This document shows, piece by piece, positions 6,001 to 9,000 of a DNA stretch of 64,000 nucleotides. Source of the stretch: Polyangiaceae bacterium. GTDB taxonomy: Bacteria > Myxococcota_A > Polyangia > Polyangiales > Polyangiaceae. The position numbers were made by a program. The stretch's first letter is position 1. Each line of letters starts with the position of its first letter. The DNA is taken from NCBI GenBank assembly GCA_016712345.1, contig JADJRH010000002.1, positions 328,466 to 392,465 of the forward strand, written 5' to 3'.

Positions 6001-9000
6001 AAAACGACAGTTTTCTACCAAACGGATCTGTAATTGCCGAAAGCAACCCGTTTTCATACTTGAGTTCTACCCGATTGCCCCACGCGTCGGAGATGGATTG
6101 GAGAACGGTTGAACCGCCCCGCGTCTCAGGCGCAAAGTGCCTGACAATACCCGTGGTAAGGTTTTTGACATCAAACGATTGTCCGTCATTTCGCCTAAAA
6201 AACTCAAGGCGGCTGCCGCGATGGACTTCACTCTTGGAAGGGGCCGGAAGGCTGCACGTAACTTCGCGCCCGTCTTCTTCGCGAAGGACGACTTTGGACT
6301 CTTGGATGGTGAGATATTGATGGTAAGAATGGGTGAATCCGCCGCGCCCGAGCGGCGTTCGTTCAGTGGAGCGGCTTGAGTTGTAGTGCCTCCTGAACGT
6401 GATTGGCACGATGCCGTACAGAGTATAATCAACGAAAGTGTCCACCACATCGCCCGAGGCAACAGCCACGGGTTCGGCCGCAACGTACACTTTGGCGGCG
6501 TGTTTTTCACTCTTTGAGTTCATCGCCTTCACGAACGACAAACCCGAAATAAACTTGCCTTTTGACTGGTGCACCTCCAGCTGTTTGGAGAGCAGATTGA
6601 GCACCACGTCGTCACCGGTGACGCAGATTTCCACGTCGCTCGCTTTGGCGCTTTTGGATCCGTTTAGCGTTTTGGCAACTTTTTGAACGGCGTGGGTAAC
6701 AATGTCTTTAATGGGTAGAGCGTTGGCCGGCAGGTTTGCCGGTAGCTCAATATCCATGGTGCTACCCTTTTTGAGAACGGGATCACCGCCGCACTTGATT
6801 TGTTGGCAAACGTTTTTTCCAGTGGCCGATTTGGCCACGTACAAAAACGGCGACGCCACTGGCCCGGTGGGAGGAGGCGGCGGGATCATACTTGTGGCCG
6901 GCGGACCCGGTGCCACATGCCCGCTACCCGTTGTTGCAACGTTTTTGCCTTTAACAGTGCTGGCCATGGTGTACCTACGGCAGCTCCATGAGAGCGGAAA
7001 GAACCCGAACGAGGGATGCCATATCAATGACCATTCGCTCCCCTTCAGCGCGCATGACGCCGTTTTTGTCGAGCTTGAGCGATACAGGCCCCGCTTCGAT
7101 AACAACGGTTTTGTCGGCACGAATTCGCAAGTCGGTGGCTGTCAGGGTGGTTAGACCCGAGGCTTCACGCGTGATTCCACGGCTCGTTTGAACGGCTCCT
7201 AAAATGGTGGGGCCACGTTCTGTATCAACGAGGAGAACGGTTTTGCCCGAGCGCAGGCATTCTTCAGCAAACTGGGGTTCTACTTCGTCGGACAAAACGG
7301 CCGCAAAACGCCGTCCGTCGAGCGTTCTGACGCGGTAAGATCCGGCCGCACCCGGATCGGCCTGGGCCATGTCGCGCATTTCAATTTTCGCTGGCACAAT
7401 GCCGGGCCCCACCGTTGTCACTTCGGTTTTGGACCGGTTGGTGGTTACAGACCTCACCACCGCTGTTTGAGCGGTTGTGTTGGAAGTGGTGCGCGCCGCG
7501 GATCTTACCTTTGCCATGGCTTTTTTTACCCTACTACTCGTAGTTTTCGTCGCCTGAGTCTTCTGCTTTAACCGACCCTTTAAACTTACCATCAACTGTG
7601 ACGGTTCCAGGTTCAATGGTAAGGGTCACTCCCCCCGCCTTCACGGTGATCTTACCGGTTGCTACAACCACCACGTCAGACCCTTTGAGTGTGGCCGAGC
7701 CGCCGATGGTATAACCGGCACTCGCTGTAAAGTCTTCTACCCTGTCGCCTCCCGCATCGATCTTTCTCGAGGCGAGTGTTTCGTTCAGGGCGCCTTTGAC
7801 CGATTGTCCAAACTTGCTCGCTTTGATTTTTTTGGCGCCGGCGACCGTTTCCGTGTGTGCGCCCATGACGTTGACGCCGTAGTTGGCGCCGGCGATCATT
7901 TTACAGGAGCCACCCACCATGACCGTGGAGGCTCCCAACACCTGACGTTTGACATGTTCAATTCCAGTTTCGATTTTGGCTGCGCCGACGAGGCGAGTGA
8001 GCGTGGCACAGGTGGTTGAGTAGTCACCGCCGATGTTGAAAATGCGGGCCGCACCTACCATGACAGTTTCACTCGCGGCTTTAATGGTTTGATTGGCGGT
8101 CACGTTGACGGTGCGGCTTCCACCGATGGAGTAGCTCTGAGAGCCTTTTACCCCCACTTCATGAACCTGACCGACAATCAACTTGCGGGTGGCGCCCACT
8201 GTCCACGTGTCGTTGGCCGTGACAGCGGTGACCTTGTCGTTTTCCGTTCGCTCGTTGAAGTCTTTTGACGCTACAAAAGACATCATTTCGTTGCCTTTTG
8301 TGTCATTCATTGAAACGACGTTGGCGCTGCCCCCACCGGGCGTTGTGCACGAGCCAAAGGCGGTGACCACCTTGTCGCCCGGTAGGCCGTTGGGCGGAAC
8401 GGCTGTTCCATTGTAGAGGCGACCAACCACCAGAGGATCGTCGGCGGAGGCCGAGTGGAAAGAGGTTAATACTTCCCACCCAACGCGCGGTAGAAAAAAT
8501 CCACCCGAGGTGGGGGGGTGCACTGGGCGAGTCCACATGGAGCTTGTATCGTCGAAGGGGCGCTCGCGATCCCAGCGGAGGTGGACTTTGAGCCGGCTGT
8601 GCTGTTCCGTGTGAATTTCACTCCCCGATGCGCCGGTGACAGTGGCCGTTTGTACTCCACCCTGTGCTGGAATGGGTGAACGTTTTGGACGGTAAGATCC
8701 ATTGATGGGAACAGCGACAAATCGCGCTTGAAATCGCTCCGTGGCCCGAGCCGTTTGATCGGAAGCCTCCTGCTCCACTTCAAGAAGGAGCCACCTTCCA
8801 ACCGCCGGGTCGTCACCCCCCTCTATCTCAAGCACGTGACCGGCGGAGAGTGCTCGGCTTGACGTGGATGCTCGCAGCACCGTGGTGAGAGAGCGCAGCT
8901 CTTCGAGCCGAATTTGGGCGAGGGTAGACCCCTGGTCGGGGGTTTTATAACGTCCGGGGTATTCATACTGGACAAACTTTTCAACTTTGTCTTTAGCCTC

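What the first reader, a model, noticed from the sequence alone, without database searches (positions are those of the whole stretch)
6975..7616. Unclassified 180-213 aa gene wedged between vgrG and rhs: candidate adaptor/chaperone or spike cap
In vgrG-rhs loci this position is usually occupied by DUF1795 (EagR), DUF4123 or DUF2169 adaptors, or a PAAR protein. This ORF has a low-complexity T/S/R-rich N-terminus overlapping the vgrG 3' end. A beta-rich C-terminus follows: TLTATDLRIRADKTVVIEAGPVSLKLDKNGVMRAEGERMVIDMASL. None of those families was recognised by eye. The Rhs N-terminus itself (GSGHVAPGPP...PFLYVAKSATGKNVCQQIKCGGDPV) may supply a PAAR-like/DUF4150 tip. This ORF could then be a new adaptor type.
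Basis: inference. Interest (0 to 1): 0.55.

Follow-up and report, generated by a model that had tools for sequence, protein, structure and literature searches.

The report
Divergent TvpC-like VgrG-tip mimic gene
The small gene between vgrG and rhs is real and encodes a cut-down copy of the type VI secretion spike, a distant relative of the recently described TvpC (DUF6484) helper proteins, so it is probably a known kind of accessory factor in an unusual gene arrangement and not a new adaptor type.

Summary
The ORF is a real, conserved gene. Its true extent is most likely 7517..6975 on the minus strand (180 aa, MAKVRS...). The 213-aa TTG-started form that overlaps vgrG is probably an ORF-finder artefact.

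Pfam, NCBIfam and PHROGs find nothing. The AlphaFold2 model shows a disordered basic tail, an OB-fold and a short beta segment. Its best full-length structural matches are small phage and pyocin central spikes.

Profile-profile comparison links the family to full-length DUF6484 proteins (probability 92%, E 5.5e-7). A sister family links more strongly (95%, E 3.8e-8). That sister family sits in the canonical slot vgrG - X - DUF2169 - thiolase-like.

DUF6484 proteins are the class II "TvpC" VgrG mimics. They are predicted, by analogy with the DUF3540-type TvpC tested in Serratia, to hold a DUF4150/PIPY PAAR-like domain in a pre-complex before VgrG replaces them.

In all 12 distinct loci the ORF follows a VgrG orthologue (or its remnant) and a PIPY-Rhs effector lies in the same locus. 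In the window the PIPY domain is fused to the Rhs.

The difference from known TvpC systems is context. No DUF2169 (TvpA) or TvpD gene lies next to it, and none is in the 64-kb window. The family was found only in Polyangiaceae among named records.

Verdict: new variant of a known kind, of moderate interest.

The parts
6975..7517 (-). The gene in question: 180-aa TvpC-like protein. Layout: disordered basic tail (residues 1-38), OB-fold (about 40-110), short beta segment (about 112-160), conserved C-terminal segment ...RMVIDMASLVRVLSALMELP.
7518..7616 (-). In-frame upstream extension of the mechanical ORF (TTG start at 7616). It overlaps the vgrG 3' end and is probably not translated.
   Evidence: No homologue has this extension. 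In other loci the distance from vgrG to this gene ranges from an 8-nt overlap to a 54-nt gap.
7534..9705 (-). VgrG-B, an intact 723-aa spike protein. Its orthologue lies immediately upstream of the gene in every intact locus.
   Evidence: TIGR03361 E 6e-103; Phage_GPD, Gp5_trimer_C. Orthologues are 38-47% identical across loci.
9716..11558 (-). VgrG-A, split into two overlapping ORFs (11558..11061 and 11176..9716). Probable frameshift/deletion or assembly error.
   Evidence: Pfam Phage_GPD positions 1-121 fall in the first ORF and 247-303 in the second. A VgrG-A paralogue lies at this position in all loci.
2960..6967 (-). Rhs effector, 1335 aa: N-terminal PAAR-like DUF4150/PIPY domain (about 6578-6967), DUF6531, RHS repeats, RHS core, C-terminal Endonuclea_NS_2 toxin. 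Its ATG lies 7 nt after the stop of the gene.
   Evidence: Pfam. A PIPY HMM hits every locus of the family. Weak PDB hit to the N-terminus of the Rhs 8qjc_A (E 0.011).
2304..2957 (-). SUKH/SMI1-KNR4 protein, the presumed immunity protein for the Rhs nuclease.
   Evidence: Pfam SUKH_6 E 5e-8, SMI1_KNR4.
1604..2377 (-). Second SUKH/SMI1-KNR4 protein (extra or orphan immunity gene).
   Evidence: Pfam SMI1_KNR4 E 1.2e-7.
14..1588 (-). VgrG-C, a third vgrG cut by the window edge. In relatives it is followed by a TvpD-like 330-aa protein, a HEAT-repeat protein and sometimes a DUF2169 gene.
   Evidence: tblastn. Synteny in L001, L002 and L007.

Best explanation
The gene encodes a divergent TvpC-type protein of the DUF6484 lineage. 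It is a trimer-forming mimic of the distal part of VgrG: it has the OB-fold and a short beta-prism but lacks the gp27 hub.

Most likely mechanism (inferred). Its beta-prism end presents a VgrG-like platform. The DUF4150/PIPY PAAR-like domain of the downstream Rhs nuclease effector docks there soon after synthesis. This pre-complex keeps the PIPY-Rhs assembly-competent. The cognate VgrG (VgrG-B, encoded immediately upstream) then displaces the mimic. The loaded VgrG-PIPY-Rhs spike is fired, and the mimic itself is not secreted.

Shown here: the gene is real and under purifying selection; the OB-fold plus spike-like topology; remote homology to DUF6484 proteins; conserved linkage to VgrG-B and PIPY-Rhs.

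Inferred by analogy with published TvpC work: trimerisation, PIPY binding, and replacement by VgrG.
For: 1. Homology.
- ORF family A1 against three genuine DUF6484 proteins (Pfam E 1e-13 to 1e-23): hhalign probability 92.3%, E 5.5e-7, ORF residues 100-179.
- Sister family A3 against the same three: 95%, E 3.8e-8, 132 columns running to the last residue.
- A1 against A3: 99.6%, E 1.6e-23.
- The C-termini share a pattern...RIRGGSVNLN...RLVGRMLRLN...RVLSALMELP.

2. Fold.
- Best full-length Foldseek matches: R2 pyocin spike 4s37 (E 1e-3, 148-154 columns) and the P1 central spike.
- A 150-aa phage 'valine-glycine repeat protein' in BFVD.

3. Tip mimicry.
- ORF residues 117-159 align with the last beta-helix turns of VgrG-B orthologues (residues 665-706 of 723): E 5e-5 to 7e-5, probability 63-67%.
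- The match is weaker to the VgrG-A tip (E 5e-4) and the VgrG-C tip (E 9e-4).

4. Context.
- In 12 distinct loci the gene directly follows VgrG-B (8-nt overlap to 54-nt gap), or a 59-aa VgrG-B remnant in L003.
- A PIPY domain, free or fused to Rhs, is always in the locus.
- The sister family occupies the canonical class II slot: vgrG - X - DUF2169 - TvpD-like.

5. Literature.
- TvpC is an OB-fold plus beta-prism VgrG mimic with an unstructured N-tail.
- It forms a pre-complex with the PAAR-like protein and is then replaced by VgrG.
- The DUF6484 type has a 'very short beta-prism'.
Against: - The Pfam DUF6484 model (61 positions, OB part only) hits none of the 68 family members scanned. The A1 to DUF6484 alignment does not cover the OB part.
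- The DUF6484 profile was built from only 3 sequences.
- No DUF2169 (TvpA) gene is adjacent, and none lies in the 64-kb window. Every published Tvp class is defined by TvpA.
- No trimer or complex could be modelled. In the monomer model the conserved C-terminus is a helix. If that helix caps the prism, it could block PIPY docking.
- In 5 loci VgrG-C, a TvpD-like gene and a HEAT gene lie between this gene and PIPY-Rhs. The link to VgrG-B is therefore tighter than the link to PIPY.
- The pre-complex role of DUF6484-type proteins is itself a prediction. The experiments were done on the DUF3540 type in Serratia.
Confidence: 0.6

Rival explanations
1. A structural piece of the spike that is secreted. 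It would be either a small gpV-like spike or a trans-acting extension that stacks on VgrG-B and carries the PIPY-Rhs at its tip.
For: The best full-length structural matches are genuine membrane-piercing spikes: R2 pyocin 4s37 and P1 gp5, and Mu gp45 and CIS spikes. VgrG-A is split into hub-like and gp5-like ORFs in the window and in L002, so a separate hub-plus-spike pairing is conceivable.
Against: In known spikes the OB end docks into a gp27-type hub, not onto a beta-helix tip. The gene always follows an intact VgrG-B. It is homologous to TvpC-type proteins; the one tested experimentally (the DUF3540 type in Serratia) forms a complex mutually exclusive with VgrG. No conserved His/Cys apex motif is present at the C-terminus.
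Confidence: 0.15
2. A classical adaptor or chaperone that bridges the VgrG-B C-terminal tail and the Rhs, working like Eag, Tap or DUF2169 proteins and unrelated to tip mimicry.
For: Its position between vgrG and the effector is typical of adaptors. VgrG-B orthologues carry a short tail after the last strand, acidic in several of them, and the ORF has a basic N-terminal tail.
Against: No match to DUF1795, DUF4123 or DUF2169. The fold is an OB-fold plus spike-like strands. The Rhs N-terminus shows no obvious hydrophobic transmembrane stretch by eye that would need an Eag chaperone. The charge of the VgrG-B tail is not conserved: it is near neutral or positive in L007 and L009.
Confidence: 0.15
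3. Not a functional gene: a chance ORF in the vgrG 3' overlap frame, or a decaying VgrG fragment.
For: The 213-aa form does overlap vgrG. GC-rich DNA yields many spurious ORFs.
Against: There are 291 representatives with end-to-end conservation and their own motifs, LGPGLH and RVLSALVELP. dN/dS is 0.08-0.21. The start is conserved just after vgrG.
Confidence: 0.02

Closest known systems
TvpC, DUF6484 type (class II Tvp / DUF2169 synteny type A), e.g. P. aeruginosa PA0096 and V. parahaemolyticus VP1395. Here represented by the Paracoccus, Ralstonia and Rhizobium plasmid proteins in L018, L019 and L022.
   Same: Similar size (141-169 aa in the three examples, 180 aa here). Unstructured N-tail, OB-fold, very short beta-prism, no gp27 domain. 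Encoded right after vgrG. Associated with a DUF4150/PIPY effector. Detectable profile-profile homology including the exact C-terminus. The same sub-threshold DUF2345 signal in the beta part.
   Different: The Pfam DUF6484 model does not hit it. No DUF2169 (TvpA) or thiolase-like TvpD gene is adjacent. The PIPY domain follows directly and is fused to an Rhs nuclease. The C-terminal motif is VELP rather than VNLN. Named records are all Polyangiaceae.
Sister family in Polyangia (C-terminus ...GRMLRLN), e.g. Minicystis rosea A7982_12210.
   Same: Clear homologue (hhalign 99.6%) with the same architecture. It follows the last of three tandem vgrG genes.
   Different: The sister family keeps the canonical neighbours DUF2169 and a TvpD-like gene, and has no PIPY-Rhs within 10 kb. 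The window's subfamily has the opposite pattern.
TvpC, DUF3540 type (class III; Serratia marcescens TvpC, Burkholderia TagC).
   Same: Same concept, an OB-fold plus beta-prism VgrG mimic. This is the only type with experimental proof of a pre-complex that VgrG replaces.
   Different: Longer beta-prism (81 A). Works with pentapeptide-repeat TvpAB/TvpB proteins. Only 1 of 53 members gives a weak DUF3540 hit (E 0.008).
gpV / gp5 / PA0616-type central spikes of phages and R-pyocins.
   Same: OB-fold followed by intertwined beta-helix strands. These are the best full-length structural matches.
   Different: Those proteins are true piercing tips with a metal-binding apex and sit on a hub protein. 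Here there is no Phage_base_V sequence match and no conserved His/Cys apex.

Membership tests
TvpC, DUF6484 type (class II Tvp) | Match to Pfam PF20093 (DUF6484, a 61-position model of the OB part) | tested here: not met
   No hit for the ORF, for 53 family members at E<=1 or for 15 sister members at E<=5. Control DUF6484 proteins score E 1e-13 to 1e-23.
TvpC, DUF6484 type (class II Tvp) | Homology to full-length DUF6484 proteins | tested here: met
   hhalign A1 vs A6: 92.3%, E 5.5e-7, 78 columns. A3 vs A6: 95%, E 3.8e-8, 132 columns. A1 vs A3: 99.6%. Caveat: A6 holds only 3 sequences.
TvpC, DUF6484 type (class II Tvp) | OB-fold plus short beta-prism, no gp27 domain, unstructured N-tail | tested here: met
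TvpC, DUF6484 type (class II Tvp) | Gene immediately downstream of a vgrG | tested here: met
   16 nt after the vgrG-B stop in the window. The same holds in 11 other loci, including a VgrG-B remnant in L003.
TvpC, DUF6484 type (class II Tvp) | Adjacent DUF2169 (TvpA) and thiolase-like TvpD genes | tested here: not met
   A DUF2169 HMM finds nothing in the 64-kb window. In relatives DUF2169 lies elsewhere in the island, and a TvpD-like gene follows VgrG-C. The window ends inside VgrG-C, so trans partners just outside it cannot be excluded.
TvpC, DUF6484 type (class II Tvp) | Partner protein with a DUF4150/PIPY PAAR-like domain | tested here: met
   Rhs residues 1-130: PF13665 E 4.4e-6, with the orthologue above the cut-off. 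PIPY HMM hit in all 12 loci.
TvpC, DUF6484 type (class II Tvp) | Forms a pre-complex with the PAAR-like protein and is then replaced by VgrG | not testable with these tools
   Needs multimer modelling or biochemistry. The only indirect support is the similarity of the beta part to the VgrG-B tip.
TvpC, DUF3540 type (class III Tvp) | Match to Pfam PF12059; pentapeptide-repeat TvpAB/TvpB neighbours | tested here: not met
   1 of 53 members at E 0.008. No such neighbours were seen.
Eag (DUF1795), Tap/Tec (DUF4123), DUF2169 adaptors | Pfam domain match | tested here: not met
   No hits. The fold is different.
PAAR / DUF4150 spike cap | PAAR or PIPY cone domain | tested here: not met
   No Pfam hit. 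The model is an OB-fold plus strands. The PIPY domain is in the next gene.
gpV/gp5 central spike (Phage_base_V) | Phage_base_V OB domain match and a metal-binding apex | tested here: inconclusive
   No Pfam match, but the structural topology matches 4s37 and P1 gp5. No conserved His/Cys at the C-terminus.

The most novel reading that the evidence does not exclude
This subfamily is a TvpC that works without a DUF2169 TvpA. It would template loading of a PIPY-Rhs effector either alone or together with the TvpD-like and HEAT-repeat proteins encoded after VgrG-C, with the HEAT protein taking over the PAAR-shielding role. That would be a fourth, TvpA-independent class of VgrG-PAAR assembly system, so far seen only in Polyangiaceae among named records.
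Probability: 0.2. Interest if true: 0.6.

Novelty: new variant of a known kind. Interest (0 to 1): 0.4.

Why it matters
TvpC-type VgrG mimics were described only in 2025-2026 and are defined by co-occurrence with DUF2169.

This result shows two things. First, the lineage extends into Polyangia as two families that Pfam does not detect. Second, one of them has separated from DUF2169/TvpD and sits directly before a PIPY-fused Rhs nuclease.

That gives a natural test of whether the placeholder step needs TvpA. It also provides profiles to annotate about 300 'hypothetical' proteins in T6SS effector islands of large myxobacterial genomes.

Tried and rejected
- Pfam, NCBIfam and PHROGs on the ORF gave no hits.
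- A PDB sequence-profile search gave only a chance hit to RecE, E 0.27.
- AFDB50 Foldseek was not available.
- Looking up the window's own contig by exact protein failed: it is not on record.
- hhalign of the whole ORF profile against whole VgrG alignments was weak (probability 10%). The OB parts did not align at all.
- Only the beta part against the VgrG tips gave a suggestive signal.
- The idea that the basic ORF tail pairs with an acidic VgrG-B tail was dropped, because the tail charge is not conserved across loci.
- The supplement of the Tvp paper holds no sequences and no myxobacterial entries.
- The 162-aa gene before DUF2169 in Sulfitobacter (L021) was tried as a DUF6484 example. It does not align and was removed.

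Full report
**Observation**

The window carries a minus-strand operon-like row:
- a split vgrG (VgrG-A, 11558..9716);
- an intact vgrG (VgrG-B, 9705..7534, 723 aa; TIGR03361 E 6e-103);
- the ORF in question;
- an rhs gene (6967..2960, 1335 aa);
- two SUKH/SMI1-KNR4 genes;
- a third vgrG (VgrG-C), cut by the window edge at 1588..14.

The mechanical ORF runs 7616..6975 from a TTG. An ATG at 7517 gives a 180-aa product, MAKVRS.... This lies 16 nt after the vgrG-B stop and ends 7 nt before the rhs ATG.

A search of 5.8 billion proteins found the identical 180-aa NCBI call (a Polyangiaceae MAG) and 52 further clusters of about 155-180 aa with E 1e-22 to 1e-45. None has a Pfam domain. Their alignment starts at MAK/MAR, matching the 7517 start. 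The stretch that overlaps vgrG is therefore an artefact of taking the longest ORF.

Between close orthologues dN/dS is 0.08-0.21. An exhaustive profile search of 1.84 billion representatives found 291 relatives. The gene is real.

**What it is**

Pfam, NCBIfam and PHROGs give nothing for the ORF. Across members there are only sub-threshold hits. DUF2345, the VgrG C-terminal beta-helix extension, hits 8 of 53 members. DUF3540 hits 1 of 53.

The AF2 model (pLDDT 80.9) has four parts:
- a disordered tail (residues 1-38);
- a confident beta-barrel with one helix (residues 40-110, pLDDT above 90);
- five short strands (residues 115-158);
- a terminal helix (residues 166-176).

The beta part (residues 117-159) aligns with the last turns of the VgrG-B beta-helix at E 5e-5 to 7e-5 and probability 63-67%. 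It aligns less well with the tips of VgrG-A and VgrG-C. This is suggestive, not conclusive.

**Link to a known class**

Two papers describe proteins with exactly this architecture.
- Sachar et al. (JBC 2025, PMC11883445) define DUF2169 synteny type A as vgrG - DUF6484 - DUF2169 - thiolase-like - ARM-like - DUF4150 ('PIPY') effector.
- Monlezun, Earl and Coulthurst (bioRxiv and EMBO J 2026) name the OB-fold plus beta-prism protein TvpC. They show in Serratia that the DUF3540-type TvpC forms a pre-complex with the PAAR-like protein and TvpA/TvpB, and that VgrG then replaces TvpC. They predict the same for the short DUF6484 type, such as PA0096.

To test membership I needed genuine DUF6484 proteins. 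I found DUF2169 loci on plasmids by tblastn. From them I took the annotated DUF6484 genes of Paracoccus, Ralstonia and Rhizobium. Pfam confirms them at E 1e-13 to 1e-23. It also shows that the DUF6484 model covers only the 61-residue OB part.

The hhalign results were:

| Comparison | Probability | E-value | Extent |
|---|---|---|---|
| ORF family vs the three DUF6484 proteins | 92.3% | 5.5e-7 | ORF residues 100-179 |
| Sister family (...GRMLRLN) vs the three | 95% | 3.8e-8 | 132 columns, to the last residue |
| ORF family vs sister family | 99.6% | 1.6e-23 | 133 columns |

The sister family is the second tier of the representative search.

The sister family sits after three tandem vgrG genes. 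In Minicystis rosea (L014) and one metagenome (L017) it lies directly before DUF2169 and a 350-aa protein. In L015 the DUF2169 gene lies upstream of the vgrG genes on the opposite strand. The L014 350-aa protein is homologous to the class II thiolase-like TvpD (E 4e-15).

The ORF is therefore a remote member of the DUF6484/TvpC lineage that Pfam misses.

**Context of the window's subfamily**

Thirteen loci were fetched, 12 of them distinct (window included). All eight loci from the genome collection, and every named protein record but one (a MAG labelled Candidatus Nanopelagicales), are Sorangium or other Polyangiaceae. The rest are unnamed metagenome contigs. They show VgrG-A, VgrG-B and the ORF, followed by one of two arrangements:
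- a PIPY domain (a free 103-aa protein, or fused to Rhs as in the window), Rhs, an immunity gene, VgrG-C, a 330-aa protein and a HEAT protein;
- VgrG-C, a 330-aa protein, a HEAT protein and PIPY-Rhs.

L003 keeps only a 59-aa remnant of VgrG-B.

The 330-aa protein is related to the TvpD-like protein of the sister loci (E 5e-9).

DUF2169 genes occur in some islands, but never next to the ORF and nowhere in the 64-kb window. The window ends inside VgrG-C, so partners just beyond its edge cannot be excluded.

The PIPY assignment rests on four results:
- PF13665 at E 4.4e-6 for the window domain;
- 37.9 bits, above the cut-off, for the 46%-identical L009 orthologue;
- a conserved P-x-P-F/Y-x-Y motif;
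- a weak hit to the N-terminus of the solved Rhs 8qjc_A.

**Mechanism**

The best-supported reading is a VgrG-tip surrogate that receives the PIPY domain of the Rhs nuclease and hands it to VgrG-B. Fold, homology and linkage are shown here. Trimerisation, PIPY binding and displacement by VgrG are inferred from the published TvpC work.

The main uncertainties are:
- the absent TvpA;
- the unmodelled trimer;
- the conserved C-terminal segment, which the monomer model makes a helix;
- the tighter linkage to VgrG-B than to PIPY in five loci.

Rival readings are a secreted mini-spike or spike extension, a classical adaptor, and a spurious ORF. All are less well supported. The spurious-ORF reading is refuted by conservation and dN/dS.

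**Verdict**

The gene is not a spike cap and not a new adaptor type. It is a divergent TvpC-like VgrG mimic in a new arrangement: no adjacent TvpA or TvpD, placed directly before a PIPY-fused Rhs. Novelty: new variant of a known kind. Interest: 0.4.

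Noticed in passing
window 9716-11558 (-): VgrG-A is broken into two overlapping ORFs of 165 aa and 486 aa. About 125 positions of the Phage_GPD domain fall between them. This is a frameshift/deletion pseudogene or a MAG assembly error. In L002 the same gene is split differently, into a 396-aa hub-like part and a 320-aa gp5-like part.
   Followed up: partly
window 14-1588 (-): A third vgrG (VgrG-C) runs off the window start. In L001, L002 and L007 it is followed by a TvpD-like 330-aa protein, a roughly 500-aa HEAT-repeat protein and, in L001 and L007, a DUF2169 gene. 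The missing Tvp partners may therefore lie just outside the window.
   Followed up: partly
L014 10001-10597, L015 10001-10570, L017 10001-10543: A sister family of about 180-200 aa has at least 225 clusters, no Pfam domain and the C-terminus ...GRMLRLN. It is a DUF6484-like TvpC that current domain models miss. It lies after three tandem vgrG genes, directly before DUF2169 and a TvpD-like gene in L014 and L017. No PIPY effector lies within 10 kb.
   Followed up: yes
window 1604-2957 (-): Two consecutive SUKH/SMI1-KNR4 genes follow the Rhs Endonuclea_NS_2 toxin. One is the presumed immunity gene. The second may be an orphan immunity gene.
   Followed up: no
L003 10495-10869: In one metagenomic lineage a 124-aa gene (weak DUF7919 hit, E 0.047) is inserted between the TvpC-like gene and PIPY-Rhs. 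VgrG-B is reduced there to a 59-aa remnant.
   Followed up: no
window 11613-12644 (-) and 12690-14462 (+): A Cys-rich 343-aa ORF lies directly upstream of VgrG-A. A divergent 590-aa Pro/Ala-rich low-complexity ORF lies next to it. Neither has a Pfam match.
   Followed up: no
window 57700-63500: Very long overlapping ORFs lie on both strands (1842 aa on minus, 1461 aa on plus) with strongly skewed GC by codon position. This is probably one GC3-rich coding region that casts shadow ORFs.
   Followed up: no
window 39312-41813 (+): An 833-aa ORF has a single sub-threshold RHS_repeat hit (E 4e-4), far from the vgrG island.
   Followed up: no
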